From the NCBI GenBank assembly GCA_000004985.1, contig GG738905.1: a stretch of 64,000 nt of DNA; one strand, 5' to 3'. This DNA comes from Naegleria gruberi. Taxonomy: Eukaryota. Below the pieces are notes generated by a model that was not told where the DNA came from, did no database searches, and saw only the letters and a program-made list of their open reading frames with translations. Of the stretch, positions 8,543 through 57,645 are shown piece after piece; positions within the stretch are counted from its first letter, which is position 1; each line of letters starts with the position of its first letter. Both the position numbers and the translations under genes were made by a program.

Positions 8543-8920
8543 GTCTTCATCTTCTGAATATGATTCAAAGAAAGTTGCCTAATTTTTGAGGGATGAGAAT
8601 TGATGGATTGAAAGCCTCCATCTCATTGAGAATGAGCATTGACAATAATAGTGGAATCATTCAATGTCGATTTGAAACTATTTCAAATAAATTTCGAGTT
8701 GGAATCTGCTACTTTTTTTAAGTGTTTGGTGATAAACGTTGGGTCAATTTGTTACTTTCCATTTTGAGGAGTCATGCAGATTTCTTGAATGAAAGTTGAA
8801 GTGAGTACCCCACTCACTAAGGTTTATTGTAAACTACACACACCAATAAATATGAAAAATTTTTGTCTGAAAAAATTTCAACACAGCAAGATGTTAAAAG
8901 ACAAGATTTACGCTCTTATT
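8543..8920 (+). repeat. Left terminal repeats of the DIRS-like element: A at 8543..8793 followed directly by B at 8794..8920.
   Basis: Near-identical copies sit at the right end in the order B' (12797..12925) then A' (12976..13240), with a 50-N gap between them. Confidence 0.75.
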
Positions 8921-9900: not shown

Positions 9901-10034
9901 TACTATTTTTCGATCCTCCAGATGCGGCAGAGATACGGGAGAGGAAACAAGCTGTTCACTCCATTTCGAATGCTTGGAAGGAGTGGAAGAGAAGAGGAGC
10001 GAAACCTTCGATAATAAGGCTCCTGAAAGAGGGT

Positions 10035-33900: not shown

Positions 33901-34040
33901 ACTGAACCTTCTTGTTCATTATTGAAACGATCATCACCACCAATTGATGTTGTTGTTATTATATTGGAACTATTTGATTTGAAATTGGATATCAAAGATG
34001 TTGTCATGACTATGATGGCCGTGGAAGTTATCTTTTTCAA
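30906..34040 (-). CDS. Hybrid sensor histidine kinase of 1044 aa. The N-terminal region is S/T-rich and possibly extracellular or disordered, followed by TM segments, HisKA, HATPase_c and a C-terminal receiver domain.
   Basis: H-box ASLSHELRNPLHAIIGSVE. N/G boxes QIVMNLVSNSIKYT and DNGCGIS...GLGLNITKQIIEKMEG. Receiver IFVVDDNAVNRKILTKMLR...DIILLDCFMPILSGKEACEMIRK. Confidence 0.85.
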   Translation of the reverse strand: MKKITSTAIIVMTTSLISNFKSNSSNIITTTSIGGDDRFNNEQEGSVRTNNNSHHYKPNSPIRISVPHKDEDDNNNTFNAATTPTMEAIDDEFLSSSSSPQTTSTSSPSLTPPSLLQDKFDTVATQQQLKKDRRSGTINSIRNNMNFSSPMSASIMKSKNFRKLDHQTSNGNIVVKRMPNQEEMAPESPSSSIKAKYSSNSPTNNSSSTTTNNNSVPPSPSSSTAGSANSSAAIKDEVDLQQVKQQQSCHSTVGSYLAIMPIIFGAIASWDIGPLFFVIVLVVEHFIHMGVNIILDKVTTLHAFSMINLSRISLADFVQIAMQIKYGPLSPMHIITTFKIFVVSMSFYYKSSYILFGCGQLIAFTTISLLTSFYMWYDLLSEKERADFYVKVLEVFVIQNTVLIGSFFFSKHLTEKNNQYTSHQVEIAKERVSNYEKTRFIASLSHELRNPLHAIIGSVELIKNIYKSEDCSESCKHCMVSNASFSEMINDVHENAALLLHILSSSLQMSSMEIGNIKLKVEQFNVMCLIESITCVFSPLAIEKKNTLHSFFDVSKVPMFLMGDSVRISQIVMNLVSNSIKYTKGGQVLLKCKKAKDEELKLHFQEEEIKKNCFYLKIECQDNGCGISESQIGSLFKPFHIIEKQEKTQGFEHYFKQSEFTKLNNGGSSLINTNRNGLGLNITKQIIEKMEGKIIVNSRVGEGTTMNVYIPLEEMDKQEQVTDSEGSSSSTHINLNPENLLDVLSEDQSQDLSIIIIDEDPVFRQVLSSYLNLFKRVVLIQDFETHADFVQESENILHVADHSCKYMIFCPESFCTQIQGTRFVEQLNCMIIPSIFRGETRHHQTFSYLTKPIKFVDLADLVLKEKPHNAHCKKASCTPRQSIVEVGSMPTFLGVETASPTSERSESHHPSSPIRPDISKKSIFVVDDNAVNRKILTKMLRVIGFKDIDVACDGMECFNMYKRKKYDIILLDCFMPILSGKEACEMIRKAEKQNETEKQTPILAITANTWESVDTLVGHGFDSVIYKPILLDSLKKEVFNMLRI

Positions 34041-35999: not shown

Positions 36000-38900
36000 A
36001 TGACAGCTTCAACCACAGTGTTAATATGCCTGTTGTCTTACTTGTTTCTTTCCTTCTTCTTTACTTATAACTATGCAGCCGATCAAATTTACTATTCGAA
36101 TCGTCCAACTTCACAAATGACGAAACCTTTCGTATATCAATTAGCAAGTGGTGCACCTGTTGCCCTCTCGATCAAATATTTCGATAACACAGGTGATTAC
36201 GACAATGTATACCACTTCATCCCTGACAATCCCTCAGCAAAATCCAACTTTACAATGCGTTTCTATGTTGATGGATTTTCGAATATTGCTTGGAGTGCTT
36301 TATTGACTAGTTTGGTATCTGGATGGAATTCAGTGTCGAAATGTGGAGTTTTAGTCAAGTCAAGCTTGTCTAGCTCTAGAGAATCGACCACTTCACAAAA
36401 TTCCACATTCTTTAATACACCTCTTTCCATTTCGAATAGTGATAAGTTTAATTGTGTGGTTTCGGCTAATTTTGCAAAAGCTGGATTGTTTGAAGTGTTG
36501 GTTACTCCAAAATCTAATTATGAAGAGGGTGTTTATTTATTTGAATATACTCCTGTGGCTGGTTTAACAGCTGATCAATCTTTATTTCAGGCAGAATTGG
36601 TCGTCTATTCGAAAACCACCTTTACGAAACTTGTTGGAAATCCGGTGGTTGATCCAAACAGTTTATTGGAAATTCAGGTAGCTCAACCAAGTATAATTGA
36701 TCCAACTAATCCACCAAATCTCGATAACGAAACTTCCACTTCTTACATTCCATTGAGAGATAACTTTGGAATGAATGCTATTGTTTCTTCTGCAGTTTCT
36801 AATAAGATGAATTTGATTTATACATGGCAAGTTATGAGAGTTTACAAATTGAACACTGCCATAATTGATGTCATGCCAAAAACTAACTATCTCGGTAAAT
36901 CCAATACTCTCCAAGCCATGTATCAACAAAACAGTTTAGGATACTCCTCTCTCGTTTTATCTCAAGATAAAATACTCTATGCTGATACAGCTTACAAGGT
37001 AGTGGCCTCAGTTTACTCCTCCTCTAAGACTCTCATTGCTAGAAAGATCAAATACTTGAGAACGCCACTCGATTTCTCTCCAGTCTTGTCAACTGTTGGA
37101 ACTGTTTCACCAACCATTGTCAATTTCACTGATCCACTCACTTTCAAAGTAACCTCTAATTTCAAATATAGCGACAATTCAGATGCCACTAATTTACAAT
37201 TTGCATTTGGTTATTTGGATACTTCCCTAATTAAGAGTTCTGATGTCATGAGCTTTAGTAATTTGGACAATGTTCCTTACTCGACCATTATGCAAGGATT
37301 TGTGAGGGTGACTGATTATTCCACTTCCAAAATTATTTCTTCCTACCTTCCACCAAGTTATGCTTTGGGAGAAAATCAAAAATCTTGGAAGACTCTTTTG
37401 TTTGTGAAGGATTTAAGTTTTGGAAATGTGAAAACTTATGCTTTGAATGGAGTTATTGTGAAACCAGTGGCTCTCGAGGAGATTTATCGATTTGTATTAC
37501 CTTCAGCATTTATGAGTGTTTCCATTCCACAATTGAAAGGAGTAGTTGGCTTCACAAGAAAATCCTATCAAAGCACTGCCAATTCAACACTGATTGACTT
37601 GGTTCAAAGACGTTTATTTGCTGTCATTCAGAACAAGTTGGCAACCATGACTGAAAATGATACTGACAAGTTGGCAGATCTTGCTAGAATTCTCGATATT
37701 TGGGCATACAATGCAAAGAAAACTATGGCGAATATGGTAAACACAGATGGAGATGCTATTTTCACACTCTTGTACAATTTCATTTCCATGATTAAGAAAG
37801 ATGCCAATCAAAACAAGTACACTGGTGATGTCACTTCCAAACTTCCACTTGGAATGAAGGATGGTACTGTTTTGGATATACTGACCTCTCTGTTGTCTAG
37901 TTGGATGAAAGTTTCTCAATTCAAATCGAAAACTGCATCACTTGTGAAAATGCTTTCGACTAGTATTGTTGATAGTATTTCACCAAGTGAAGAAAGAAGA
38001 TATTCAACTGATTCTATTGTATTTTCTATTAGAAAGGATTATGCTTCTAATTTTAATGGAACTACTTTAACAACTGATTCTTCATATCATTCAGTTGTCA
38101 TGCCAACTGTTTCAGTATTCAATTCAACGAAAGGTCTGTATGGAACTGAATTTGTAACCTATTTGGAAAATCCAAACAATTCCACATCATCCAGTGGTGG
38201 AAACATTACCAGTGATGTAATTTCCTTGAGATGTATCAATCCATCAGGTGATTACTTCCCTCTTAGCGAATTGACTGATCCAATTGTTTTGAATTTCAAC
38301 TTGTCCATAGCCAACATTTCAAATCCAGATTTATTGGTCTGTAAATATTGGAATGAAACTGTCAGTGATTGGTTGTCCAATGGTTGTACAAGAACTGCCC
38401 TTCTCACATACGGTGATTACTATGTAGTTGAGTGTTCCTGTGATCACACCACTCAATTTGCAACATTTGTTGAGTTTCCAACTTCAACTACCAATTTAAC
38501 TTTAGCACAAAAGCAAGCTTACTACATTTTATGGGGATTTGATATTGGAATTGGTGTCATATTTGTGATTGTGAGCTTGATAATGTTATTACTGATTTGT
38601 ATCTTTAGAAATTCACAACCTGTCAAGGCCAAGTACATTGCTCCATTTGTGGGAATGACAAGTATCTTTTTAGAATCATTGTTGAGCTATGTTGTTAAGT
38701 CATCGCTCATGATTGGTTTCACAGCAACCAACTCGACCAATATTTCATTCTATTTGAATACTATTACATATTGTTCTGCTGTTATTATTAGTGTGGCTTT
38801 CGCAGAAACAGGAGAAGATTTGGCTTCTACAGATCATTTCCTCAAAGAGTTTGTACGTTTTCCTTGTGGTATGCTTGCCCTTGGTTATCTTTACCTATTT

Positions 38901-40026
38901 CACAGGATTTTCCATTGGAAGAATTGTTCAAGAATCACTCAATTCAGACACCTCTAAGCAAATTTTCACTTCTTCCATCTATACCATAGTTACCTCGAGT
39001 TTTATGGGTGCAATTCTTCTATTCTCACTTGTTGCAGTTTCCTTAATATTCATAGTTGACTTGATTTATGCCTTTGCTGTTGAATATAGAAAACCATACA
39101 TTGATACATCAGAGATTTCAGGAACTCTTGTGGAAATGAGTGAATCTCAAAGCTCTTCTGCATTCAGCACTGATTCGAATAGCAATTCCAAGAAGAAATT
39201 CAAAGATTTGGAAAGCTTTAAAAAGGCAAAGGATATTACCATGTCTTCCATGTACAAATTCTTTGTCCAAGATGATCCTTTATTCTTCCGTTGTGAGAGT
39301 TTGCTTTTCATTTTCTGTTTGGGAGTGTTATTGATCTCGTATGTGTTTGGAATTGTTGGATTAGGTTTCTTTACACTCACTGGAAAGGCATTGAGTACAA
39401 GTGAAAGCGCATTCGAAACTTCACTCGTTATGGATATCATCAGATTAGTTCTTTCAGTTGTGTACTTTGTCTTGTACATTCTGGTCTTTGGAGATTTGTC
39501 ACTTTTGATTTACATTTTCAAATATAGAAAGTACAGAGTTTCGTCCACTTCAGGTTCCACAAGTTTTTCATCTGAATCTCGATACGACAATGAATTACAA
39601 GAAATTCTGAATGACGGCTTAGCTTATTCCTTATTCGAAAAGTTCACAGTCAAGGAATTCTCAAAGGAAAACCTCCTCTGTTACAATTCCCTACAAGAAC
39701 TCGAAGATGAAAAACAATTTTATCAAAAAGATTTGGAAAATCAAGTGAAAATGTTGGAAGAAATCATTGAAAAATATTTAACACAAACTAGTTCATTTGA
39801 AGTTAACATTCCTTCGAACACAAGAAAGAATCTCATTAATTTGATTAAATCAAAGGAAGGTCTTACAAAGGAAAATGTAAAAAAGTCGCTGGAATCTTTG
39901 AAATCTGATATTCTGGTCAACTTGACTGATACCTTCTCAAGATTTACTACTTCTCAAAGTTATGAATTTTGGACGCAAATCAAGGAAGAAAAGGAAAGAT
40001 TGATGGCAAGAAATAAAATGGTTTAA
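36000..40026 (+). CDS. Large receptor combining an extracellular region of about 790 aa, a GPS/GAIN-type autoproteolysis motif, a 7-TM domain and a C-terminal RGS domain. The frame changes from 0 to +1 near 38800..38915 through an unresolved short intron or indel.
   Basis: Signal/anchor MTASTTVLICLLSYLFLSFFF. GPS motif LVCKYWNETVSDWLSNGCTRTALLTYGDYYVVECSCDHTTQFATFVEF, ending just before TM1 (YILWGFDIGIGVIFVIVSLIMLLL). Several TM helices continue in ORF 38791..40026. RGS signature LAYSLFEKFTVKEFSKENLLCYNSLQELEDEKQF...SQSYEFW. Confidence 0.65.
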
Positions 40027-40226: not shown

Positions 40227-41351
40227 TTAATGCTTTCTAGGAAATGCAAATAAATATTGAGGAGGAACTGCCACTTGATATTCCAATTCATGAGCAGCTC
40301 TAATTGGCCAATAAGGATCATTCAATTCCTGTCTTCCAATTAAAACCAAATCCGCCTTTTGATCCTTAATTAAATCATTAGCAAATTGAGCATCCTTAAT
40401 TTTACCGACAGCGCCAGTTGCCAATCCATCAACTGATTTCTTGACACCTTCAGAGAATGGAACTTGATAACCTTGAACAATGGAAGTTGGGGAAAGTAAT
40501 TTGGCATTTGCATTGTTGCCACCTGAAGAACAATCCAACAAGTCAACTCCACATTTTTGTAAAATTTTGGCTAGCTCTGTAGTATCTTTCATGGTCCATC
40601 CTTCATCACCAACATATTCATCTGCTGAAATTCTCACAAATAAAGGCATTTCACTTGGAATATTCGCTCTAATTCTTTCAACTAATTCAACCAAGAATCG
40701 AATACGATTTTCGAAACATCCACCATATTCATCACTTCTCTTATTCGAAGTTTGTGAAAGAAATGAAGAAATTAAATAACCATGAGCTCCATGAATCTCA
40801 ATTAAATCAAATCCTGCCTTAATAGCTCTCTTTGCAGCATCCACAAATTGCTGAATCACCTCTTGAATTTCCACAATGGTCAACTCTGCTGGAATTCTAT
40901 GATGTTCATCGAATGCAATTGGAGATGGACCTACAACATCCCATCCTCCTTGTTCATTTGTGAGTGCTTTTCTACTATTCGCTTCCCAAAGTCTTCCTGT
41001 TGATGCCTTTCGTCCGGCATGATTCAATTGTAAACCGATATGACCTCCTTGTTCATGGGCAAATTGAACAATTTTTGACAACATGTCAACATGTTCATCT
41101 TTGTAAATTCCCAAGCAGCCTGGAGAAATTCTACCAACATCTGAAACACCAGTTGCTTCTACGATAAATAAACCTGCTCCACCGACAATTCTACTGCCAA
41201 TATGTTGGACATGCCAGAAATTAGCAAATCCATCAGTTGCTGAGTACTGACACATTGGAGAAACGACAATTCGATTCTTTAATGTTAAGCCTCTAACGGT
41301 GAATGGTTGGAAAAGTGGTGGAATGGAAAGTTCTTGTTGTTGTGTGGACAT
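40227..41351 (-). CDS. Old Yellow Enzyme-family NADH:flavin oxidoreductase (YqjM/NamA-like), 374 aa, single exon.
   Basis: PLFQPFTVRGLTLKNRIVVSPMCQYSA, HVQHIGSRIVGGAGLFIVEATGV, GLQLNHAGRKAS, GFDLIEIHGAHGYLISSFLS. Confidence 0.85.
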   Translation of the reverse strand: MSTQQQELSIPPLFQPFTVRGLTLKNRIVVSPMCQYSATDGFANFWHVQHIGSRIVGGAGLFIVEATGVSDVGRISPGCLGIYKDEHVDMLSKIVQFAHEQGGHIGLQLNHAGRKASTGRLWEANSRKALTNEQGGWDVVGPSPIAFDEHHRIPAELTIVEIQEVIQQFVDAAKRAIKAGFDLIEIHGAHGYLISSFLSQTSNKRSDEYGGCFENRIRFLVELVERIRANIPSEMPLFVRISADEYVGDEGWTMKDTTELAKILQKCGVDLLDCSSGGNNANAKLLSPTSIVQGYQVPFSEGVKKSVDGLATGAVGKIKDAQFANDLIKDQKADLVLIGRQELNDPYWPIRAAHELEYQVAVPPQYLFAFPRKH

Positions 41352-45747: not shown

Positions 45748-47583
45748 TTATAAATTAATCTTGAAAACCTCAATTTCCTTAACTTTGAAATTATTTCTTG
45801 TTCCACCATGTAAATAATTTCCAGCTTGTTGACTTCCTTCCACAATTCCCTCAGGCAATTCGAAAGATCCTCCAAGATTCGAATAAGAATAATCACCTGT
45901 AGCACTCTCATTGCAAATATACAAATCACAAGGAAATCCATACGAAACTGAATAAATATCTCTCATGAGTACTGAATTACTTTGTTTTCCATTTTGAAGT
46001 TTTAACACTTTCAATTCTAGTTGACCATTTACATCAATTACCTTAAAAAGGAAGACAGATTCATCTGGAAAGTAGGTTGCATTTTCTGGTGATTGCCAAC
46101 TAACAGATGTGTAGCCTCCAAATATATTACCATGTTCAGATTTGATTAGTGACAGAGTTGGACCTTTGTTGTCACATTTTTCATGGAAGTTTTTCGCACT
46201 AAATCCATCTCTGGTAGCTCTATAAAGAAGTTCGATAGTTGGCTTGCTTTTTGTGAGAGAAATGAGATTTCTGATTAGGTTTTTGTCTGTAATTAGTTTC
46301 GAATTGATATGTTCGAAACTAGATGAATCATATTCGCAACCATTCCAATTGCATTGATCAAAGAATGTATTAATAAATGAAAATCTAATCAAATTTTGAT
46401 TGGAAAGGTCAATATTTTGGAAACGAATGTCCTTAATTTCTCTCGTTTCGAATAATGAAAAATCAATAAGGCAAGAATCGAATATATTTCCTTCATAAGG
46501 TGATAAATCTCTCAATGAATTTCTAAAATCAATTCTCTTGAATGTGCATTGTTGAAATTTGGCTTTGAGATTGAAATCCATTTCTTCAAATACTGATTGG
46601 TTGAATTGACAATTGACAGCTTCAAAACCAGGCACATGAAGCTTCTTGAAATGAGTTCCTTTGATGATACAGTTTGATAACTTTGAATTAGTTAAATTAC
46701 TTTCCCAAATAATTGCCTTTGTCAAGTCAACTGAGTCAAAATCAATATTTTCCAAATTAGAATTTGACAAGTTACAGCATGAGAGATCACTGTTCGGTAA
46801 TATTGCTCTTTTAAATGAAGAACGAGTAATACTTGAGTGGGCTAAAGTAGTTCTTGTCAAATCACAACCTTCAAAATTACATTCTACCAAGCAGCAATTT
46901 TTCAAAGTGGCATTTGACATGTTGCAACCACTAAAAACACTTCCTTTCAAATTGGATCTATCTAAAACAATACCACGTAAATCCATTCCACTAAAATTAC
47001 AATTAGTAAATGTGCAATCTGTCAAATTAGCTTTTGCCAATTTTAGCTTTCTCATGTCATAACTGTTTAACCAAACTTTATGCTGAGTTGATTGCATCAT
47101 TTGGATGAATTCTTTCATGGTAATTGGATTGTAATTGTGTGATTCCTGTTTTAGTAATTTTGAAAAGTTGAACATTTGACAGGTGCAGAGAAATTCCTGT
47201 TTGATGTCACTTGTGATTTCACCAACAATTTTAAACTTTAACCAATTGTAAAGTAATTTGAAAATCTTCGGATCACAATCTATGAAAATTGGTTGATTGG
47301 CATTTGACAGTTGACCAGAAATTATTTTACCAAATTCATTGGCTGGTTCTATTGGATTGTTAATAAAAGTGGTTACGGAAACAGTAAAGAGAGTTCCGCC
47401 AACATTCAGAGTAATTGGATCACTCATATGGTTTCCAATACCTTTAGTTTGATTAGTTTCATAATATTCTACTCTTTCATAATTAGTCAATGATTTACTT
47501 TGATCAACAAAATTTTGATTAGTATTGTTTGGTTCTTTCATTTTTTTGAAACTTGTTTTTTGAAATTGATCTCTACAATTCAT
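45748..47583 (-). CDS. BTB/T1 (KCTD-like) protein with pentapeptide repeats and a C-terminal TLDc domain, 611 aa.
   Basis: BTB/T1 ITLNVGGTLFTVSVTTF...KIFKLLYNWLKFK. Pentapeptide repeats LTDCTFTNCNFSGMDLRGIVLDRSNLKGSVFSGCNMSNATLKNCCLVECNFEGCDL. TLDc-like region TLSLIKSEHGNIFGGYTSVSW...FLFKV. The BTB-pentapeptide layout resembles KCTD9. Confidence 0.65.
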   Translation of the reverse strand: MNCRDQFQKTSFKKMKEPNNTNQNFVDQSKSLTNYERVEYYETNQTKGIGNHMSDPITLNVGGTLFTVSVTTFINNPIEPANEFGKIISGQLSNANQPIFIDCDPKIFKLLYNWLKFKIVGEITSDIKQEFLCTCQMFNFSKLLKQESHNYNPITMKEFIQMMQSTQHKVWLNSYDMRKLKLAKANLTDCTFTNCNFSGMDLRGIVLDRSNLKGSVFSGCNMSNATLKNCCLVECNFEGCDLTRTTLAHSSITRSSFKRAILPNSDLSCCNLSNSNLENIDFDSVDLTKAIIWESNLTNSKLSNCIIKGTHFKKLHVPGFEAVNCQFNQSVFEEMDFNLKAKFQQCTFKRIDFRNSLRDLSPYEGNIFDSCLIDFSLFETREIKDIRFQNIDLSNQNLIRFSFINTFFDQCNWNGCEYDSSSFEHINSKLITDKNLIRNLISLTKSKPTIELLYRATRDGFSAKNFHEKCDNKGPTLSLIKSEHGNIFGGYTSVSWQSPENATYFPDESVFLFKVIDVNGQLELKVLKLQNGKQSNSVLMRDIYSVSYGFPCDLYICNESATGDYSYSNLGGSFELPEGIVEGSQQAGNYLHGGTRNNFKVKEIEVFKINL

Positions 47584-48127: not shown

Positions 48128-48904
48128 TTAATGAGTGAGCATACAAGTTCTGGCCTTTGATTGATCATTAGAGAATCCAAAAACTGAAACAACAGTTTCA
48201 GCAGCTTGCTTTCTATCATAAATACAAGTAACAATCAAATCCAATGCCTTCATCTTATCATTATCAAATCCAAAAACTCTCAAAACAGAAGCAGCTTCAG
48301 TTGAGCTCATTTGACCAATATTGTTAGTTTGCTTCAATTGAGTCAATGCCTTAACCTTATCATTATCAAAACCGAACAAATTCAAAATGGTGACCAAATC
48401 AGCACCACTGACTGGACAACATTGAGATGAGGAGTAAGTTTGAACTGCCTTGACCTTATCATTGTCGAATGAAGCATTTCTGCAGGCAGCAATAATTTGT
48501 TGAGCCAAAGCACCACTGCTCATTTGTGGTTGTGGAGAGAATCCAGAGGTTGTGGTAGTTGTGGTTGTGGAGAAACTGGCATTAACAGTTGGTTGTTGGT
48601 GATATTGAGGTTGACCGTATTGTTGTTGAGGTGGGACGTTCATATTAACACCAAATCCTGGCATATTCATGGAAACACCCATTTGTGGTTGTTGTTGGTA
48701 TTGTGGTTGACCGAAAGATTGTGGTTGACCGTATGGTTGTTGAGTTGGAACATTCATATTGACACCGAATCCTGGCATATTCATGGAAACACCAACTTGT
48801 GGTTGACCATAAGGTTGATTTGGTTGCATATTCATATTAACACCCATTTGTGGTTGACCATATGGTGGTTGATTAGGAGTACCCATGCCAAAGTTAAAAT
48901 TCAT
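48128..48904 (-). CDS. Protein with a (P/Q/G/M)-rich N-terminal half and four C-terminal DUF4476-like repeats (FGFDNDKVKA...).
   Basis: The likely start is MNFNFGMGTPNQ. Repeats: ASFDNDKVKAVQ, FGFDNDKVKALTQL, FGFDNDKMKALDLI, FGFSNDQSKART. Confidence 0.5.
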   Translation of the reverse strand: MNFNFGMGTPNQPPYGQPQMGVNMNMQPNQPYGQPQVGVSMNMPGFGVNMNVPTQQPYGQPQSFGQPQYQQQPQMGVSMNMPGFGVNMNVPPQQQYGQPQYHQQPTVNASFSTTTTTTTSGFSPQPQMSSGALAQQIIAACRNASFDNDKVKAVQTYSSSQCCPVSGADLVTILNLFGFDNDKVKALTQLKQTNNIGQMSSTEAASVLRVFGFDNDKMKALDLIVTCIYDRKQAAETVVSVFGFSNDQSKARTCMLTH

Positions 48905-49335
48905 TTTTGTGTGATTTGATTTGATTGTTGGACTCGAATGAGTTGTTGATTTGTTTTTTTTACTGTTGTGTGATCTTGTTGTGAAGAGATATTTATTATG
49001 CGTCCACTGTAATATCAATCGGCTTGTGTGTTACTTGCAATTCACATTACAGTGGTTGCATACAGGTCACCACATGGGAGTATGTAACATTGGTTATTGA
49101 CTCAAGTCATTGGTTATTGTAAAATATGACAGATTACTGTGCTCGGAGGGTAAAACACATCGGGTAGTGAATAGCGAGCGCGATGAAACTCCTCTTACAT
49201 TGAATTACAAATAAATATTAAATAATTTATGATAGATATCGAGATTTAACACTCCATTGCGGAATGTGGTACTAGAACTGACATGTTGGTTGAGTAGAAA
49301 ATTCCACTACAGAACTGGAATAGGTTGATAAAAAA

Positions 49336-52300
49336 TTAGAATCGATTAGATGAGGTAATTAGTAATTCCAAAGCTTCAACCCAATCACTACGATCTTCTT
49401 CTGAGGCAGCATTGAAAACAAATGTTCTATTGAGGGTTGATAATTTAAAGCAATTAGCCCTTCCGGCTTCCTTTTCAATTTCAGGTGCCATTTGAATACG
49501 TGTTCCTCTGAGTGCAACACTCTTAATTGGTTTTGGATCTCCTTGATTCTTATAATAGGAAAGCTGGTATTGGTTTGCTTTACCACCTTCGAGTGGTTCA
49601 AGTGCCATGAAACGCTTCTTCCACGATTTGAATCCACCACCTTGTTTAATCAAGTAACCATTCTTGTTCTTTGCCTTTTCAAATTTCAAATCTGATGAAC
49701 CACCACTACTGAGAATTGATTCACTTCTCGATTTGTTTGATGAAATGGAACCAATAGCAGATCCTCTCACACTCGTCTTTACAACAGCAGATCTGCCAGT
49801 GGTGGTTGAGGATGAAGCTGAACTACCACCCGACTTTTCTGAACCCATGAGTGGATTAATTGTAACTGTAAATTCAGGTTCATAATCAACATCGTCAGAC
49901 ACAGATGAAGTTATTGATGAATTAGCAGTAGAAGATGAGGTAGTCATTGGATTTGAAGCAACAACAGTTGTACGGAGACGAACTGTGGCACGTTTCTTTT
50001 GGGTTGTTTTGGTTTCATCATCATTTGAAGAGTGGGAAGTGAACATTCCACGAGACTTGTTTGGAGAACTCAATTGAATATCATCTTCATAGTAATCAGT
50101 GGATTCCTCTGAGAATGATGAAGTACTTCCTCTACTGATGTTGTTGGTATTACTATTATTGGTGTCATTATTAGATGTGGCACTTGTTGGAGGAGGAGAG
50201 GTCATAATGATGGAACCACTTGTACCAATAACACGGGAATTAGTAGGAGTGGAAGGTGATGGTGATTGGTTGTTTGAAGCTTGTTGTGGAGTTGTGTTTG
50301 GAGTGGCAGCTTCAGTTGGTGGTTTTACAACAACAGTTCTCCTCACTACACGAACAATCTTCTTTGGTGCACCAGTTCCATTTTCATCAGTTTCACCACT
50401 AATGGATGGACGAGGTTGTGAATTTTCAGGTGGAAGAGCAACATGTTTTGGTTCTGAAAGTCTTGGTTGTTGTTGTTCTGGTTCAGTTGGTTTGACTTTC
50501 TCTGGTTCTTTCTGTACAACAACTGGTTTGGCTTTTGCAAGTTCTTCCTTTTCCTTCTCGAGGGTTGCAACTTTTTGCTCTTGTTCAAGTTTTTCACGCA
50601 TGACACTTTGAAGTTGTTTCTTTAATTCTTCAACTTCAGAGGTGAGCTCAGAAACAGTAGAATTCAAGACATAAACTTGCTCTTCAGTTTGTTTGATTGA
50701 TTTTTGGCTATCCTTTTCCAATTTTTCATATTTTGATTTGTATTGAGAAAGTTCCTTCTCCAACTTTTTAGCATGATCATTGGCAGAGTCAAACTTGCCT
50801 TCCAATTCAGCTTTGGAGACTTCAAATTCATCCTCCTTGTCTCTCAATTGTTGCTCCAAATCATTGATGGTGTTTTGCTTTTCTTCCATTTGATCTGAAA
50901 TTTCCATAATTTCATTTTGTAAGGTGAGCTTTTCTTGCTTTTGTTTCTTGACTGCTTCCTCCAAATCTTGTTGATACTTCTTTTGGAGTTCTTCAATTGT
51001 TACATTCTTTTGGTTTTCAATTTCAGAAATCTTTCTTTCTTGTTGCTTGATTTGTTGACAGTGCTTTTCATTAATTTCCTTGATCTTTTCATTGGTTTCA
51101 ATTTCGAATTGAGTTTCAACACGTTTACGCTCATCTTCAACAGCCTTATTCTTTTCCAATTCTAAGGAGCTCTTTGTTTGTTGGATAAGAATTTGGGATT
51201 TTTGTCGTTCTTCCTTCAAGGAAATGTCCAATTCCTCAGCCTTGGTCTTGGCTTCACTCCATTCATTTTTGATAGCAGCAATTTCACTCTCCTTGTCTTC
51301 AATCTTCTTTTCGGCTTGAGACGTTTTTTCTGCTTGTTCAGAGACAAGTTTTTTCACTTGAGAAACTTCCAATTCGTGAGCAGATTTCAAAGTTTGTTCA
51401 AGAGTTTCCAATTCCTTCTTGTGTGAAACTTTGAGTTGGTTGGTGGTTTCAACTTGAACTTCCAAATCTGATTTGACAGAACTCAATTCCTGTTGGGTTG
51501 ATTGAAGACTTGCCTTGGTTGTTGCTACCAGTTCCTTCTCATTTTGGAGATCCTTCTTGATTTGATCACGTTCTTCAACCAATTTTTGGTATTGACTCTC
51601 CTTCTCAGAGATGATAGAATTCAATGATTCAATCTTGGTTTGAAGTTCCTTACGTTCTACATTGAATGATTCGACACTAGAGAGATTTGAAGTAACCATT
51701 GAGTTCTTATCTGATAATTCCTGCTCCAATTTACTCTTTGTAGTTTCGAGAGCAGTAACCTTTTCTTCGTAGGTTGTTTTGATGGTTTCCAATTCTGACT
51801 TGGATTCTCTCAATTTCTTTTCAGCGGCCTCAAGATCTTGAGTTAACTTGTCAATCTTTCCTTGAGCATTGGATTTTTCTTCAGACATATTCTTGTTAAA
51901 CTCATCTTGCAACAATTGAACTTGTTGTTGGTGTTGTTTTTGTTGGGAGATTTTTTCACTTTCAAAAGTCTTTTCCAATTTTTCTTTTGACTTTTCGGCA
52001 GCTTCCAAACTGGCAACAGCCTGTTCATGCTTTTGCTTCCATTCTAAGAGTTCTGCAGTTTCAGTGGCGAGCTTACCCTTGATTGTTTCAAGTTCTTCAG
52101 AAATGGATTCCTTCTCCTTACCAATCTTTTCCAAATTGTGTTGTAAGCTGGCAATTTCTTGTTGGAGCTGATTCTTTTGTTTAAGTTTTTCATCTTCCAA
52201 TTGAGTGACTGTTTCTGAAAGTTCCTTGATTCTTTGCAAGTTTGTGTTATTTTGACTGTCGAGAGCTGTTGATGATTCAACATTCTTTTCTTGCAAGTTA

Positions 52301-55300
52301 TTGATTTGTTGTTGGAGTAAATTAGCTTCCTCAGCTTTGGTCTTGAGTTTGTTCTCTGTATTGCTCAACTGCTCTTGCAAGGAGATGATATTTTGTTTGT
52401 ATTCACTTTCCTTCTTGGAAGCCTCTTCTAAACTTGTCTTGATTTGAGTAATTGTACTCTCTGACTTGACCTTTTCAGTAGTGAGGGTTTCATTTTGCTT
52501 TTCAGCTCTTTCAGCACGATCACGAAGTTTGATAGCTTCTTCCTTCTTTTGTGAGAGTTGGGATGAGAGATCTTCAATTTCTTTCTTGAGCTCAGTGTTG
52601 CTGTTAGTCAAGTTTTCAATAGCAATTGAATTTTCTGAGATTTTAGCATTCAAGATTTGAATTTCCTTATTCTTTTCTTCAATTGTCTTTTCGAGTTTGG
52701 AAATTGATTCTTGGGAGGATGAAAACTTTCTCTCCAAATCAGAAACCTTGGATTGTTCTTCGGAGAGCTTGGTTTCACTCTCTTTGAGTTTAGTTTCTAG
52801 AGAGGACTTTTCAGACTTAAGAGTGGAAATTTCTTGTTCCTTTGTTGAAATTGTATTTTGCAAGGTTGAAATAGATTCCTTTCCACTTTCAATACTCTTG
52901 TTGAGAGCTTCAATTTCCTTCTCCTTTGTAGCGATTTGGTTGTTAAGAGTATCAATAGAGGTCTTATTTTGTGAGATGGTTGTTTCCAAATCCTTCTTCA
53001 ACTTTCTTTCTTCCTCTAATTGATTTTCAACATTTTCCAAATCTGATTTAGATTGTTTGAGGTTGTCCTTCAAGGTATTAATGTTATTCTTGAATTGTTC
53101 AACTTGATTACCCAAATCGTCGTTTTCCTTTTGAATGGTCGAAATCTTTAACGATGATTCTTGTTCTTGCTTTTCTAAATTTACAATCTTGAGAGACAAT
53201 TCGCTGGCAGCTTGCTTTTGCTTGTCAAGTTCTTGTTTGAGGTTGTTCTTTTCCTCTAGTGTCTTGTTCATATCATCCTTCAATTTGGAAATTTCCTTCT
53301 TGGCTTCTTCTAATTGGTTATTGATACGAGTCATGTTCTTTTCATTTTCAATTTGAATGAGAGAGAGTTGATTCTTGGCTGTTTCAATAATGGATGGTCC
53401 CATAGTATCAAAAAGAGCGCTTTGGGCAGCTGTACACAGTTGCTTGACATCAGTTGTGAGTTTTTCTCTAACTTCAGCTTTAGCACGTTTAATTTGTTTG
53501 GAGAGAAGTACAATCTTGGAGGAAACAGATACCTTATATGATTCATGATTAGATTCAAGCTTTTTCTTTTGTTCTGAGAGGTTTTCAACTTCTTTCAACT
53601 TTTCAGAGATGGTATTGTTCAATGTTTGTAATTCCTCGATTTGTTTCTTAATCAAATTTTCATCATCACTATTCTTCTTTTTCAACTCTTGTTCTGACAA
53701 TTTAATGGCATTCAATTGAGTTTGAAGAAGTTCGATTTGATCCTTCAAGGATGTATTGACTTGATTCAATGATTGATATTGAGATGACAATTCTTCTAAG
53801 TTGCCTTGGAGCGTCTTAATTTGTTGTTTTTGAGCATGATATTCCTTCTCAGTTTCTTGCAATTTCTTCAAATCAGTAGCAACAGATGCTGTTATTTTTA
53901 ACAATTTCAATAATTCAATTCAATTAATAATAATATACTTACAAATCAATTGATCGGCTGTGTTATCAATAGTCTTGGTGATTTGTTCTACAGGTACATT
54001 ATCTTGTTTGTCGGAGACTTTTTCGTTTGCACCTTCTTCTGATTCAGTTCCATAAGGTGTTAAATTTTCAGATTTTACACCCCTGATTACAACATTCTTC
54101 AATGTTGAATCAGCAAACTCTAAATTGTCTGTTGTAAACTGAGCAGCATGTGGAATGGCAGGAGAACAATTTACAACTGTTGTTGTACAAGTGTTGTGCA
54201 ATGAACGAGAATAGAGAATAGCAGATAAACTCGAAGAATAGAATTGACTATCATCTTCTTGTGCCTTTGGATCATTAATCAATGTGCACAAATCATAGAA
54301 GGTCAAGTGACCATTTTCCAATTCTTCCATTTCTTCTTCAGAGACACCAACCAATGGAGATTCCAAATCTATAACAGTTAATTTGCTGTTGACTACCTTT
54401 TGCTTATTATTGTCCTTTTGTTGCACAGTTAATTCTACAAATAAGTTGGAGGCAAACTTGGTTTCCTTCTTTACCTTTTCCAATTTTCTCTTTCCGATAC
54501 AAGATGCCAAAATTTCCAACAATTCATCATCAGCACCAACATATTGTTCAATCAGGCCATTAATTTCAATCTCTTGAGTTTCTTCCTGAAGTAAACATTC
54601 CAAACCATTGAATTCTTTAATAATTAAAAAATTATTCAAAAATCCAGGATGATATGTTATTGTTGTTGTTGTTGTTGAAGAAGAAGAAGAATATTCCGAG
54701 ATGAATTATATTATCAGGATGAAGTAAATTTGTTTTTTACAGTAAATTTTAAAAACAAACAAAAAGGGCGCCAAACAATTAAAACATGTAAAATAATGAC
54801 TTACCTTCAGAGCCTTGTTGTTGCACGTGAGTTTCATTCAACAAATCGCAAATAATACCACTTCCACTCCAAACCTCATAGACACTCACCTTGATAGTAA
54901 ATTCCAAACTCTCATCACTCTCCACAATAGCATCAAATACACCTCTAACAAAACGAGGTAAAACACCATCATTTTCCTTTTCTTCTTGCCAATCAATGAT
55001 AGAGGCTGGATTAACAGCTTCCGAACCAAACATGGTGAAGGTTTTACCAGACTTTGGTGGAGCTCCCCATGAGAGGAAGGTTACATTCTTACCAGACATG
55101 AAGGTGGAAATCATAGGCTTGGCTACTTCATCATATATTTCCTGTTGAGAGGTGTTCATGTTGAAAACACGATCAAATTGATACTCTTTAGGTTGTTCCA
55201 CACCATACTATAGTATTATTGTTATTGTTGTTAGCATTATTATTATTTAGTAGCATATGTTGGAGAAAAGAGATGAAGGAGAAATTATTGTTCATAGTAT

Positions 55301-55640
55301 AAGAGTTCCACATCATCAATAATTATATTAAATAGTAGTAAAATTGTGTTCATTTCATCATCGTACGACATTAAAACATAATCATCACCATTAAATACAA
55401 ATTTCATAACGATTTGAGCATGATCGGACATTTTGGATGCATTATAATTTCATCATAATAATTATTAATACAAGTGAATTAATTCACTTTGCTTACCTTC
55501 AACAATAACTTTTTACCAGACTTGTGAAAAGCAGCACAACATTTTGTAGCATCTTCTTTGACTGCTGTTGGTGGATCAATGGCTAACACATGAGGCCTGA
55601 AACGAATGAAAAGTCTGAGTTTTTCATCCGATGTTGCCAT
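49336..55640 (-). CDS. Divergent kinesin-3-like gene. A motor domain with degenerate ATPase motifs is followed by a coiled coil of about 1200 aa, a S/T/P-rich region and a C-terminal PH domain. Four exons at about 55499..55640, 54782..55210, 53925..54612 and 49336..53908.
   Basis: Exon 1 reads MATSDEKLRLFIRFRPH. Exon 2 reads YQFDRVFNMNTSQQEIYDEV...GKNVTFLSWGAPPKSGKTFTMFG...GVLPRFVRGVF...VSVYEVWSGSGIICDLL. Exon 3 reads KLTVIDLESPLVG and HLTFYDLCTL. Exon 4 has heptad-rich Q/E/K/L sequence and a PH domain (YLIKQGGGFKSWKKRFMAL...FKLSTLNRTFVFNAASEEDRSDWVEALE). Donors GTAAGC/GTAAGT; splice phases are consistent. Confidence 0.7.
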
Positions 55641-56136: not shown

Positions 56137-57645
56137 TTATTTTCTATTTTCAATTTTCCTCTTGATGGTTGTGAGGATTTTTCTCTTTTCTTTCAATTGT
56201 TGTTCATACACAACCTTAAATCGATGATGAGTGTCCATCATCAAGACACACATTTCACATTCTACAATTTCGAACAGATTTTCAGGCAATGATTCATTCT
56301 CTCCCTTTGCAAAATAATCTAAAGATTGTTTGACATTATCAGCAATTTGTTTGCTAGTATTGACAGATCGTTCACCTCTAACATCCAAAAAGTCTGTGTG
56401 TATCTCAAATGCAATCTCAAACTTTTTCTTTTCAATATCGTATAAATCCTTTTCTGTGAAACCCTTCTTACCCTTTTTCTTCTTGGATGCATCTTCATTA
56501 CTTGAGGTTGTGGTTTCAGAGAATTGGTCAGATCCACTCAAAATGTCAGTATCGTAAAGGAAGACTTGAATCTCAAAGCTCCTCTCACACAACTTTTTGT
56601 AATCACTAATCTTTTCAAGGAGTAAAAAGTTTTCTTCACTTCTTTCAATTTTACAAAATTCTTTGAATTTCTCACTAAGAGCTGGATCATTGATTGTGTC
56701 CATCAGCATATACTTTTTGACTTGTCTCAGTTGCTTTTCCTTGGTTGTATCTTTTCTAACTGAAAGCGCGATATAAGCAACCAACACTGGAATCACAATG
56801 ACCATAGACACAACAAGGATAATGAGTGAGATGAGGGTTGTGGCCAAGTCTTCATCTGCAATCAGATTTTGCATGTTAATAACATAATCCAAAACTGGTT
56901 GAACTTCTTCGGGATATCCGGCCAAATAGTATTGATAAAGTGATGAATCAAGTGTATTGATAGCTTGAGTATAATTGGATGCTCTCACCATATCTACAAC
57001 TGATAGCTCTACCTTGACAGCTTTTCTTGATCTAACATCTTCTCTGCTCATATTATTTCTTTTAGAATAGACAACATTGTCTGGAACGGAGACAAGTAAC
57101 ACATTGAGCACCTCGTAATACTTATCATGATAGGTCATGAATAAATCAGTATATTGAAGAGAAAGTGTTCTATTGTATTCTGAAACAGCAGAAACTCTAC
57201 AAGAGAGCTTCATCAAATCTCTATAGTAGCTTGCGTCTGTTTGCAATACTTGCACATTGTTGTACAAATTGGTGACAATCGAATAGTTAACAGAAATAGC
57301 TGCCAACAATAAACAGAATGCTACTGTACTGATGGATAGAGCAATCATACTTGTAAGCTTCAAACAGTTCAGCTCCAAGATACCACAACATGTGTGAATT
57401 TTGAAAGCCTTGTTATAGAATTTGGTTACAGATGATGAACGTGGAGTTTTCAATGATGATGGGAGTGACTTTTGTTTGTGAATTGAATCTCTTTTGGCCA
57501 TTTGATTATCTATATCAACGATATCAATGGTTGTTTGGCTTGTCAATGAAGTCAAATTGGAACCTGTTGGTGGTGAGACAATCTTCATTTCGTAAGACAC
57601 ATGTTGGCTGGTGTCAATATTCTCAGAGGAGGAGATGTTTGTCAT
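56137..57645 (-). CDS. RGS-domain membrane protein: TM1, an extracellular sensor-like domain of about 170 aa, TM2, then a cytoplasmic RGS domain. 502 aa.
   Basis: TM1 MIALSISTVAFCLLLAAISV. TM2 LISLIILVVSMVIVIPVLVAYIAL. RGS signature DPALSEKFKEFCKIERSEENFLLLEKISDYKKL. Confidence 0.65.
   Translation of the reverse strand: MTNISSSENIDTSQHVSYEMKIVSPPTGSNLTSLTSQTTIDIVDIDNQMAKRDSIHKQKSLPSSLKTPRSSSVTKFYNKAFKIHTCCGILELNCLKLTSMIALSISTVAFCLLLAAISVNYSIVTNLYNNVQVLQTDASYYRDLMKLSCRVSAVSEYNRTLSLQYTDLFMTYHDKYYEVLNVLLVSVPDNVVYSKRNNMSREDVRSRKAVKVELSVVDMVRASNYTQAINTLDSSLYQYYLAGYPEEVQPVLDYVINMQNLIADEDLATTLISLIILVVSMVIVIPVLVAYIALSVRKDTTKEKQLRQVKKYMLMDTINDPALSEKFKEFCKIERSEENFLLLEKISDYKKLCERSFEIQVFLYDTDILSGSDQFSETTTSSNEDASKKKKGKKGFTEKDLYDIEKKKFEIAFEIHTDFLDVRGERSVNTSKQIADNVKQSLDYFAKGENESLPENLFEIVECEMCVLMMDTHHRFKVVYEQQLKEKRKILTTIKRKIENRK

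What the first reader, a model, noticed from the sequence alone, without database searches (positions are those of the whole stretch)
49336..55640. Kinesin-3-like gene with degenerate P-loop, switch I and switch II, a coiled coil of about 1200 aa and a C-terminal PH domain
The N-terminus aligns with kinesin motors (IRFRPH; FDRVF...QEEIYDEV; VSVYEV...DLL; HLTFYDL). The P-loop has an insertion (GAPPKSGKT instead of GQTGSGKT). Switch I, normally NxxSSRSH, is unrecognisable (KFASN). Switch II, normally DLAGSE, reads DLESPL. This predicts an ATPase-dead pseudokinesin. The motor / coiled-coil / PH layout recalls Unc104/KIF1, but the stalk is mostly a myosin-tail-like heptad coiled coil. This may be a microtubule-anchored scaffold rather than a motor.
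Basis: partly seen in the sequence, partly recalled or inferred. Interest (0 to 1): 0.55.

Follow-up and report, generated by a model that had tools for sequence, protein, structure and literature searches.

The report
Dead kinesin head with PH tail
This Naegleria gruberi gene encodes a 1923-residue protein: a kinesin-fold head that has lost its ATP-hydrolysis motifs and its basic microtubule-binding surface, a coiled coil of about 1100 residues, and a lipid-binding PH domain. It belongs to a small conserved family of heterolobosean amoebae, derives from a kinesin-1-like rather than a kinesin-3 motor, and has not been studied functionally.

Summary
A four-exon minus-strand gene (55640..49336; GT-AG introns of 289, 190 and 54 nt) encodes 1923 aa. 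It has a kinesin motor domain (Pfam E 6e-37), a heptad coiled coil of about 1100 aa, a disordered stretch of about 300 aa, and a PH domain (E 4e-19).

The P-loop is one residue too long (GAPPKSGKT). Switch I is gone. Switch II reads DLESPL. All three motifs lie inside uninterrupted exons, so no gene-model repair can restore them.

This is not decay. An orthologue in a second species keeps the same introns and motifs. The head is the best-conserved part (81% identity, against 53% for the stalk). Homologues with the same layout occur in Willaertia magna and in three environmental eukaryotes.

Two parts of the interpretation fail. The head resembles kinesin-1, not kinesin-3: there is no FHA domain and no K-loop, and the PH is TAPP1/DAPP1-like. 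The microtubule interface is acidic (net -11; head pI 4.7) and lacks R278/K281/R284. Interphase Naegleria amoebae also have no microtubules. A microtubule anchor is therefore unlikely.

Best reading: a dimeric, catalytically dead tether bound to 3-phosphoinositide membranes. It is probably Naegr_71914, listed as a "divergent KISc-PH" kinesin in 2010 and never characterised.

The parts
55497..55640 (-). Exon 1 (res 1-48). Start codon at 55640. Carries the RFRP adenine-pocket motif (55593-55604) and the family-specific KCCAAFHKSGKKLLLK.
   Evidence: The same exon end (…LLLK|YG) occurs in the orthologue on L002 and in L003.
55208..55496 (-). Intron 1, 289 nt, GTAAGC..TAG, phase 0.
   Evidence: Nucleotide identity to the orthologue is 0.61, close to the 5' flank (0.59), against 0.70-0.78 in exons.
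54805..55207 (-). Exon 2 (res 49-182). Holds FDRVF, the elongated P-loop GAPPKSGKT (55040-55066) and VSVYEV..DLL.
   Evidence: The exon-2 ORF also occurs as P0020 in an ENA contig (99% identity in the table).
54615..54804 (-). Intron 2, 190 nt, GTAAGT..AAG, phase 1.
   Evidence: The position and phase are the same in L002.
53943..54614 (-). Exon 3 (res 183-406). Holds the switch I remnant KKETKFASNLF (54439-54471), the switch II remnant DLESPL (54352-54369), the acidic alpha4-like segment (54277-54345), the alpha5 remnant FYSSSLSAILYSRSLHN (54193-54243), the neck-linker-like TLKNVVIRGVKSEN (54064-54105) and an acidic linker.
53889..53942 (-). Intron 3, 54 nt, GTAAGT..CAG, phase 1.
   Evidence: The position and phase are the same in L001/L002.
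49336..53888 (-). Exon 4 (res 407-1923 plus stop). Holds most of the coiled coil, the disordered region and the PH domain.
50572..53976 (-). Heptad coiled coil, res ~396-1512 (about 1117 aa, one proline; crosses intron 3).
   Evidence: 3.5-residue periodicity scan. Pfam finds only weak, sub-threshold coiled-coil matches here.
49672..50571 (-). Disordered region rich in S, T, N and P, res ~1513-1812. Two short basic motifs are conserved in the orthologue: KKIVRVVRRTVVV (50326-50364) and KKRATVRLRTTVV (49960-49998).
49357..49665 (-). C-terminal PH domain (res 1815-1917) carrying the beta1-beta2 signature K-x-G-x6-K-x-R-F (GYLIKQGGGFKSWKKRF, 49609-49659).
   Evidence: Pfam E 3.7e-19. Closest solved sequences are TAPP1 and DAPP1. 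The AF2 model (pLDDT 79) best matches 1eaz and 1fao.

Best explanation
The gene encodes a catalytically dead kinesin-fold protein of about 217 kDa, a pseudokinesin. It belongs to a small family that has so far been named only in vahlkampfiid Heterolobosea (Naegleria and Willaertia).

Shown: the protein has a kinesin-fold head of about 360 aa, a neck-linker-like segment, a heptad coiled coil of about 1100 aa, a disordered spacer of about 300 aa and a C-terminal PH domain. The head lacks switch I (SSRSH) and lacks the Gly and Glu of switch II (DxxGxE). It is nevertheless the most strongly conserved part of the protein.

Inferred:
(i) The coiled coil makes a parallel dimer, giving a rod of roughly 150-170 nm.
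(ii) The PH domains attach the tail to membranes rich in PI(3,4)P2 or PI(3,4,5)P3.
(iii) The heads cannot hydrolyse ATP. They are strongly acidic and have lost the basic tubulin-contact residues, so they probably no longer bind microtubules in the canonical way.
(iv) The heads instead serve as a conserved binding module for a partner that is not yet known.

The protein would then act as a long membrane-anchored tether or scaffold rather than as a transporter. The head most probably derives from a kinesin-1-like motor, and the PH domain was acquired independently of the kinesin-3 (Unc104/KIF1) PH domain.
For: Gene model and motifs. Kinesin and PH domains.

Loss of catalytic motifs across the family: alignment A1. 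The switch II sequences are DLESPL, DLEASQ, DLDSER, DLQSHL and DTEEKD, and SSRSH is absent in all six members. GK[ST] and the switch II Asp are kept.

Not an artefact or a pseudogene: the orthologue reconstructed from L001/L002 has identical intron positions and phases and the same degenerate motifs. The head is 81% identical with pN 0.12 while synonymous sites are saturated (pS 0.71). The stalk is 53% identical, the disordered region 42% and the PH domain 61%.

Family and architecture: an exhaustive phmmer search found P0004/P0018 (head, coiled coil, PH), P0006 of Willaertia magna (head, coiled coil, PH), P0005, P0008 and P0010. Locus L003 has the exon 1 motif, a head ORF and a 707-aa coiled-coil plus PH ORF.

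Fold: the AF2 model of the Willaertia head has pLDDT 82 and pTM 0.86. Its best PDB match is kinesin-1 1mkj (E 1.5e-27, TM 0.76-0.80).

Kinesin-1-like, not kinesin-3. No FHA domain.

Acidic microtubule interface: the switch II cluster has net charge -11, and -3 to -12 across the family, against 0 to +3 in canonical kinesins. Head pI is 4.5-4.8, against 6.7-9.1. KIF5B R278, K281 and R284 correspond to S, L and I.

No interphase microtubules in Naegleria.

PH domain: closest in sequence and in fold to the 3-phosphoinositide binders TAPP1 and DAPP1, and K, K-x-R and Y align with their ligand-binding residues.
Against: There is no expression, localisation or biochemical evidence of any kind.

The charge and residue arguments for loss of microtubule binding are heuristic. 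Naegleria tubulins are themselves divergent, and the mitotic ones are reported to have reduced negative charge density. A conserved basic segment (HKSGKKLLLK, loop-2 region) remains in the head.

The family keeps GK[ST], RFRP and the switch II Asp, so nucleotide binding, and a nucleotide-dependent function, is not excluded.

PH lipid specificity cannot be read reliably from sequence.

Best-hit ranking to kinesin-1 is not a phylogeny. Kinesin-1 lies close to the family consensus and attracts divergent sequences.

Confidence: 0.55

Rival explanations
1. Rigor-type microtubule anchor. The dead head binds microtubules statically, as reported for Cos2 or KIF26. In flagellates it would link cortical or rootlet microtubules to the plasma membrane through the PH domain.
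For: The kinesin fold is intact and under strong constraint. A conserved basic loop-2-like segment persists. Atypical kinesins that bind microtubules independently of ATP are known, for example Cos2 (cited in PMC2867816). Naegleria builds cytoplasmic microtubules when it differentiates into flagellates, and its tubulins are divergent.
Against: The principal tubulin-binding element, L11-alpha4-L12-alpha5, has net charge -11 and has lost every basic contact residue. The whole head has pI about 4.7 in all family members. Amoebae, the proliferating stage, have no interphase microtubules.
Confidence: 0.2
2. Nucleotide-binding but non-hydrolysing switch. The head still binds ATP or ADP through the retained GK[ST], RFRP and switch II Asp, and uses the nucleotide as a structural cofactor or conformational switch for partner binding.
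For: GK[ST] is kept in all five members that cover the P-loop region. Canonical G-x4-GKT spacing holds in three of the four lineages. RFRP, the aromatic residue after GKT and the switch II Asp are kept.
Against: In both Naegleria sequences the P-loop carries a one-residue insertion with two prolines (GAPPKSGKT). This should distort the phosphate-binding loop. Switch I serines that coordinate Mg2+ are missing.
Confidence: 0.25
3. Still an active, unconventional motor that hydrolyses ATP with substitute residues.
For: Only the retained GKT and the neck-linker-like sequence TLKNVVIRGVKSEN.
Against: The switch II Gly and Glu and the switch I Ser-Ser-Arg are missing throughout the family. By established kinesin enzymology (own knowledge) these residues are required for gamma-phosphate sensing and for the catalytic salt bridge. 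The microtubule interface is acidic.
Confidence: 0.03
4. Gene-model artefact or decaying pseudogene.
For: None beyond the unusual motifs.
Against: The spliced frame is continuous with a single stop. Intron positions and phases are conserved in a second species, and exons are better conserved than introns. The head has pN 0.12 with saturated pS. The same degenerate motifs and architecture occur in Willaertia and in three further lineages. No canonical motif is encoded anywhere in the window.
Confidence: 0.02

Closest known systems
Kinesin-1 (KIF5 / conventional kinesin heavy chain) motor domain
   Same: It is the best match by sequence for the window head (E 2e-21) and for the family profile (E about 1e-40), and by fold for the Willaertia homologue (1mkj, TM 0.76-0.80). 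Both have an N-terminal head, a neck-linker-like sequence and a long dimerising coiled coil.
   Different: The P-loop is elongated. Switch I is absent. Switch II lacks Gly and Glu. The alpha4/alpha5 tubulin contacts are replaced by acidic or neutral residues. The tail ends in a PH domain rather than the kinesin-1 cargo and autoinhibition tail. Phylogenetic membership was not established.
Kinesin-3 Unc104/KIF1A (motor-FHA-coiled coil-PH)
   Same: The overall idea of an N-terminal kinesin head with a C-terminal PH domain that binds membranes.
   Different: No FHA domain and no lysine-rich K-loop. Kinesin-3 structures are absent from the top hits. The PH domain is closest to TAPP1 and DAPP1, and no kinesin PH appears among the hits. 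N. gruberi has its own kinesin-3 genes. Wickstead et al. had already concluded that KISc-PH architectures arose more than once (suppl. 6).
Known atypical or non-motor kinesin-like proteins: Drosophila Cos2, C. elegans VAB-8, yeast Smy1, plant KAC1/KAC2, vertebrate KIF26
   Same: In all of these a kinesin fold is retained while motor function is lost or doubtful. KAC1 and KAC2 have no microtubule-binding activity and act with actin (PMC3402901). Cos2 may have no motor activity (PMC2867816). That KIF26 lacks ATPase activity is my own knowledge.
   Different: No specific homology to any of them was seen. The architecture (dead head, coiled coil of about 1100 aa, disordered spacer, PH) and the taxon (Heterolobosea) are different. 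Cos2 and KIF26 still bind microtubules, whereas here the interface is acidic.
TAPP1 C-terminal PH and DAPP1 PH domains (3-phosphoinositide binders)
   Same: They are the closest solved PH domains in sequence (E 5e-9 and 1e-8) and in fold (1eaz TM 0.69/0.82; 1fao). They share the KQG..K.WK.R(F/W/Y)F beta1-beta2 signature and the beta3 Tyr.
   Different: Only 27-33% identity. Lipid specificity is untested. The protein context is completely different.

Membership tests
Kinesin superfamily (motor-domain fold) | Significant match to the kinesin motor domain profile over its full length | tested here: met
   PF00225 E 5.7e-37, 127.9 bits against a cut-off of 29.3, model positions 25-323 of 327. 136 PDB kinesin sequences match at E<=0.01.
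Kinesin superfamily (motor-domain fold) | Three-dimensional kinesin fold | tested here: met
   Tested on the Willaertia homologue only. AF2 pLDDT 82 and pTM 0.86; Foldseek 1mkj E 1.5e-27, TM 0.76-0.80. The window protein itself could not be submitted because it is spliced.
Catalytically competent kinesin motors | P-loop GQTxxGK[ST] (G-x4-GK[ST]) | tested here: not met
   GAPPKSGKT, which is G-x5-GKT with two prolines. Other family members keep the G-x4-GKT spacing but not GQT.
Catalytically competent kinesin motors | Switch I NxxSSRSH | tested here: not met
   Replaced by KKETKFASNLF. Deleted or unrecognisable in all family members.
Catalytically competent kinesin motors | Switch II DxxGxE (DLAGSE) | tested here: not met
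   DLESPL. The Asp is kept, and the Gly and Glu are lost in all six members.
Catalytically competent kinesin motors | Basic tubulin-contact residues in L11/alpha4/L12/alpha5 (KIF5B K237, K252, K256, R278, K281, R284) | tested here: not met
   All are non-basic in the alignment. The segment has net charge -11 against 0 to +3. Actual microtubule binding is not testable here.
Kinesin-3 (Unc104/KIF1) | FHA domain after the neck | tested here: not met
   No FHA hit on the full-length protein at E<=0.001.
Kinesin-3 (Unc104/KIF1) | Lysine-rich K-loop in loop 12 | tested here: not met
   The loop 12 equivalent is NDPKAQEDDSQ, which is acidic.
Kinesin-3 (Unc104/KIF1) | Motor domain groups with kinesin-3 | tested here: not met
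   No kinesin-3 among the best 60 PDB sequence hits for the protein or the family profile, nor among the best 50 fold hits. This is a similarity ranking only; no tree was built.
Kinesin-1 | Motor domain groups with kinesin-1 in a phylogeny, plus the kinesin-1 tail | tested here: inconclusive
   Kinesin-1 is the best hit by every measure. No phylogeny was possible because the N. gruberi kinesin-1 sequences were not retrievable. The tail is a PH domain, not a kinesin-1 tail.
PH domain (PF00169), 3-phosphoinositide-binding class | PH fold | tested here: met
   PF00169 E 3.7e-19. AF2 model pLDDT 79 with seven strands and a C-terminal helix; best match 1eaz.
PH domain (PF00169), 3-phosphoinositide-binding class | Beta1-beta2 basic signature K-x-small-x(6-11)-[RK]-x-R-hydrophobic (motif recalled from my own knowledge) | tested here: met
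   K-Q-G-GGFKSW-K-K-R-F. The same pattern is present in the orthologue, P0018 and P0006, and is partial in L003 (H-R-R). Lipid binding itself is not testable here.
Heterolobosean 'dead head, coiled coil, PH' family (defined here) | Head with GK[ST] kept, switch I lost, DL[EDQ]S-type switch II and a [FY][FY]xxSLxxLL[YF]SR alpha5 remnant, followed by a coiled coil and a C-terminal PH with YYKN.GD.KPIK | tested here: met
   Alignments A1, A2 and A4. Architecture confirmed in P0018, P0006 and L003.

The most novel reading that the evidence does not exclude
A kinesin fold has been exapted for a job that has nothing to do with microtubules. In amoebae that have no interphase microtubules, an acidic, hydrolysis-dead head is the most constrained part of a 217-kDa dimer. 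That dimer is held on PI(3,4)P2/PIP3 membranes, such as pseudopods, phagocytic cups or macropinocytic cups. The head binds a new partner, for example a basic cytoskeletal or membrane protein, possibly gated by bound nucleotide. This would be a heterolobosean counterpart of plant KAC or yeast Smy1, but coupled to phosphoinositide signalling.
Probability: 0.35. Interest if true: 0.7.

Novelty: new variant of a known kind. Interest (0 to 1): 0.5.

Why it matters
Pseudoenzymes derived from cytoskeletal motors are rare. Each known case (Cos2, KIF26, KAC, Smy1) revealed an unexpected use of the motor fold.

Here the dead head is the most conserved domain of a very large protein. It is preserved across at least Naegleria and Willaertia, in organisms whose growing cells have no cytoplasmic microtubules. 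It is joined to a PH domain of the class that reads PI3K signalling. That makes two questions directly testable with a single recombinant domain: whether a kinesin head can be retained for a microtubule-independent function, and what that function is.

The result also corrects the family assignment from kinesin-3 to kinesin-1-like with an independently acquired PH domain. It gives a defined family and gene model for a sequence that the 2010 kinesin census set aside as too divergent to classify.

The genus includes the pathogen N. fowleri, so a lineage-specific cortical scaffold could be of practical interest. That last point is speculative.

Tried and rejected
I used exon 3 for the search, and the Willaertia homologue for the model.

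2. The word-indexed homology search was nearly blind for this query. It gave 3 hits with the protein and 17 with the family profile, mostly canonical kinesins, and missed P0004 and P0006.

3. N. gruberi's own records are mostly missing from the collections. My 1923-aa model, the XRN ORF, the exon-4 ORF and three neighbouring ORFs were not found by exact look-up. Only the flavin oxidoreductase ORF matched (XP_002671524.1), and that match identified the species. The annotated model and accession of this gene therefore could not be retrieved.

4. The afdb50 fold library, which might have named the UniProt entry, was not installed.

5. A literature search for neighbouring accession numbers found nothing. 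Searches for 'pseudokinesin' and for Naegleria + kinesin + pleckstrin found nothing relevant. The supplements of the Naegleria microtubule-regulator preprint are not held, so its expression classes could not be consulted. PMC1221362, the paper on the PH motif, is not held.

6. I first suspected a dictyostelid origin from base composition and Q/N-rich neighbouring proteins. This was rejected: the XRN gene is 76% identical to N. lovaniensis, and there is an exact N. gruberi match.

7. dN/dS could not be given as a number for most regions because synonymous sites are saturated. I report pN and amino-acid identity instead.
Full report
**Source and gene model.** The window is Naegleria gruberi. The ORF at 40230-41351 (-) is identical to XP_002671524.1 / NAEGRDRAFT_81529. 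The XRN exonuclease gene in the window is 76% identical to N. lovaniensis and 72% to N. fowleri.

The finding's coordinates are exactly the stop and the start codon of a minus-strand gene. Reading the strand and assembling the ORFs gives four exons: 55640-55497, 55207-54805, 54614-53943 and 53888-49336. They are joined by GT..AG introns of 289, 190 and 54 nt in phases 0, 1 and 1. The product is a continuous 1923-codon frame with one terminal stop, about 217 kDa.

**Observation.**
- Pfam finds a full-length kinesin motor domain (PF00225, E 5.7e-37, residues 39-352, model positions 25-323 of 327) and a C-terminal PH domain (PF00169, E 3.7e-19).
- Aligned with kinesin-1 and with canonical kinesins, the P-loop is GAPPKSGKT. 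That is one residue longer than GQTxxGKT and contains two prolines.
- Switch I (NxxSSRSH) is replaced by KKETKFASNLF.
- Switch II (DLAGSE) reads DLESPL. It keeps only the Asp.
- A 3.5-residue hydrophobic periodicity with a single proline runs from about residue 396 to 1512. The coiled coil is therefore about 1100 aa rather than 1200.
- It is followed by a disordered stretch of about 300 aa rich in S, T, N and P, and then the PH domain.

**Can a better gene model restore the motifs? No.**
- The P-loop lies in the middle of exon 2. Both switch remnants lie in the middle of exon 3.
- No GQTxxGK[ST], SSRSH or DLAGSE is encoded in any frame of the 64-kb window.
- A second species carries an orthologue of 1979 aa, found on contigs L001 (ENA) and L002 (Logan). 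It is probably another Naegleria; the contigs have 37% GC. Its introns are at exactly the same codon positions and phases, and it has the same GAPPKSGKT, KFASNLF and DLESPL.
- Exons are 70-78% identical at the nucleotide level. Introns and the 5' flank are 48-61% identical, close to what unrelated AT-rich DNA gives.

**Is it decaying? No.** Between the two species the head is the best-conserved part of the protein. It is 81% identical in amino acids, with pN 0.12 while synonymous sites are saturated at pS 0.71. The coiled coil is 53% identical, the disordered region 42% and the PH domain 61%. The degenerate switch II / alpha4 / alpha5 stretch itself is 75-88% identical.

**A family.** An exhaustive phmmer search of 1.84 billion representative proteins with exon 3 gave only 15 hits. 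Below the orthologue came:
- P0004/P0018, from an environmental metagenome, 40% identical, 1301 and 1378 aa;
- P0005, 32% identical;
- P0006, 29% identical, KAL9656503.1 of Willaertia magna, 1193 aa;
- weaker hits including P0008 and P0010;
- ordinary kinesins at E>1e-5.

P0018 and P0006 have the same layout of head, coiled coil and PH domain. The locus of P0010 (L003) encodes the family's exon 1 motif ending in ...GKKVLIK. It also encodes a head ORF and a 707-aa coiled-coil plus PH ORF.

All members lack SSRSH. Their switch II reads DLEASQ, DLDSER, DLQSHL or DTEEKD. All members that cover the region keep GK[ST], with canonical G-x4 spacing outside Naegleria. All keep a characteristic alpha5 remnant, [FY][FY]xxSLxxLL[YF]SR, in place of PYRDSKLTRLLQDS.

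Loss of catalytic motifs is therefore ancestral to the family. The one-residue P-loop insertion is a later change specific to Naegleria.

An AlphaFold model of the Willaertia head (pLDDT 82, pTM 0.86) is a kinesin fold. Its best PDB match is human kinesin-1 with docked neck linker (1mkj, E 1.5e-27, TM 0.76-0.80).

**Not kinesin-3.**
- The window head matches kinesin-1 chains best (E 2e-21), then KIF11 and KIF4.
- The family profile does the same: kinesin-1 at about 1e-40, KIF11 at about 1e-37 and KIF4 at about 1e-31.
- So does the fold search.
- The best canonical hit of the profile in the big protein collection is a protein with all canonical kinesin motifs from the fungus Coemansia spiralis (P0022).
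- No kinesin-3 structure appears in any of these top lists, although many exist (that many exist is my own knowledge).
- There is no FHA domain. The loop 12 equivalent is acidic rather than a K-loop.
- The PH domain is closest in sequence and in predicted fold to TAPP1 (1eaz) and DAPP1 (1fao), followed by SKAP55, pleckstrin, PLEKHA7, Grp1 and Akt. No kinesin PH appears.

Caveat: best-hit ranking is not a phylogeny, and kinesin-1 lies near the superfamily consensus.

**Literature.** Supplementary table 3 of Wickstead, Gull and Richards 2010 (PMC2867816) lists the N. gruberi kinesins. Exactly one has the architecture KISc-PH: Naegr_71914. It is marked 'divergent', family 'ND', with HMM score -61. 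Sequences scoring below 100 were left out of their tree. This is very probably the present gene, but I could not retrieve sequence 71914 to prove it.

The same table lists canonical kinesin-3 genes (Naegr_39261, and Naegr_80962 with an FHA domain) and kinesin-1 genes (Naegr_33335, Naegr_72809). Their supplement 6 already argued that KISc-PH architectures arose independently in unrelated kinesins.

I found no paper that describes the degenerate motifs, the family or a function.

**Does the head still bind microtubules?** Probably not in the canonical way.
- In the alignment the equivalents of KIF5B K237, K240, K252, K256, R278, K281 and R284 are L, V, E, L, S, L and I.
- The segment from the switch II Asp to the GGN Asn is L11-alpha4-L12-alpha5, the main tubulin-binding element. 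Its net charge is -11 in the window protein and -3 to -12 in the family, against 0 and +3 in two canonical kinesins.
- The whole head has pI 4.5-4.8 and net charge -18 to -22 in the four members that cover most of the head (net -12 in the shorter P0005 fragment), against pI 6.7-9.1. The microtubule surface is itself acidic (own knowledge).
[quoted passage not shown] These appear only in the spindle and in flagellates (bioRxiv 10.1101/2024.01.08.573270).

Caveats: a conserved basic segment (HKSGKKLLLK) remains in the loop-2 region. Naegleria mitotic tubulins are also reported to be less negatively charged.

**The PH domain.** Its beta1-beta2 region, GYLIKQGGGFKSWKKRF, aligns with TAPP1 (KQGAVMKNWKRRYF) and DAPP1 (KQGGLVKTWKTRWF). 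The beta3 Tyr and a following basic residue are also conserved. It fits the signature K-x-small-x(6-11)-[RK]-x-R-hydrophobic that is associated with 3-phosphoinositide binding (own knowledge). The orthologue, P0018 and P0006 share the signature, and L003 shares it in part. I infer binding to PI(3,4)P2 or PIP3, with moderate confidence.

**Mechanism proposed.** Shown: the architecture, the loss of catalytic motifs, the constraint on the head, and the family. Inferred: a parallel coiled-coil dimer whose PH tails sit on 3-phosphoinositide membranes. Its two acidic, hydrolysis-dead heads act as a conserved binding module for an unknown partner. The protein would be a long tether or scaffold.

Whether the head still binds nucleotide is open. 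GK[ST], RFRP and the switch II Asp are retained, but the Naegleria P-loop is distorted.

The nearest functional analogues are:
- plant KAC1 and KAC2, kinesin-14-like proteins with no microtubule binding that act with actin (PMC3402901);
- yeast Smy1;
- Drosophila Cos2;
- KIF26 (own knowledge).

**Verdict.** The 'pseudokinesin' reading is supported. The kinesin-3 label and the microtubule-anchor idea are not. The thing is a new variant of a known kind, a degenerate kinesin-like protein. It defines a conserved heterolobosean family with an unusual architecture. It was catalogued as 'divergent' in 2010 but never analysed. Interest is moderate (0.5).

Noticed in passing
window 8789-12754 (+), with an overlapping ORF at 10482-11852 (+): A 1321-aa ORF with a CCHC zinc knuckle, an integrase SAM-like domain and a tyrosine-recombinase (Phage_integrase) domain. 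A second-frame ORF carries reverse-transcriptase RNase H. GC rises to 0.40 here against 0.31-0.36 in the flanks. This looks like a DIRS-like tyrosine-recombinase retrotransposon.
   Followed up: partly
window 49960-49998 and 50326-50364 (-), inside the disordered tail of the same protein: Two short basic, beta-prone motifs, KKIVRVVRRTVVV and KKRATVRLRTTVV, are almost invariant between the two species although the surrounding region is only about 40% identical. They are candidate linear motifs of unknown function.
   Followed up: no
window 54439-54490 (-), res ~225-241: At the position of switch I, the two Naegleria sequences carry a lysine-rich insertion (GKRKLEKVKKETK). Three of the other four family members (P0018, P0006, P0010) have a deletion there, and P0005 has a different insertion. 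This is a lineage-specific basic loop next to the former nucleotide pocket.
   Followed up: no
window 55497-55560 (-), and L003 9716-9910: A family-specific N-terminal motif, KCCAAFHKSGKKLLLK|YG, is conserved from Naegleria to Willaertia. The first intron lies directly after ...LLK in both Naegleria-like sequences and in the distant environmental member L003. No genomic sequence was available to check the intron in Willaertia. The region has low confidence in the structure model.
   Followed up: partly
window 38791-40026 (+) and 56137-57645 (-): Two RGS-domain genes lie within 17 kb. The second is a weak RGS match (E 4e-4) in a 502-aa protein and is the immediate upstream neighbour of the pseudokinesin. 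A GPS-motif protein lies at 36000-38957.
   Followed up: no
window 48128-49018 (-): The immediate downstream neighbour is a Q/P-rich protein. It has repeated 'QPYGQPQ / GVNMNM' units and two DUF4476 repeats (FGFDNDKVKA...).
   Followed up: no
window 27163-30771, 30906-34040, 40227-41351, 45748-47583 (all -): Other genes identified: an XRN 5'-3' exoribonuclease, a hybrid histidine kinase with a receiver domain, an OYE-type flavin oxidoreductase (identical to XP_002671524.1), and a pentapeptide-repeat plus TLDc protein.
   Followed up: partly
search collections: N. gruberi's own protein records are largely absent from the searchable protein and gene-position collections, while those of N. lovaniensis, N. 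fowleri and Willaertia are present. The missing annotated Naegleria orthologues in the exhaustive search may therefore reflect how the library was built, not biology.
   Followed up: partly
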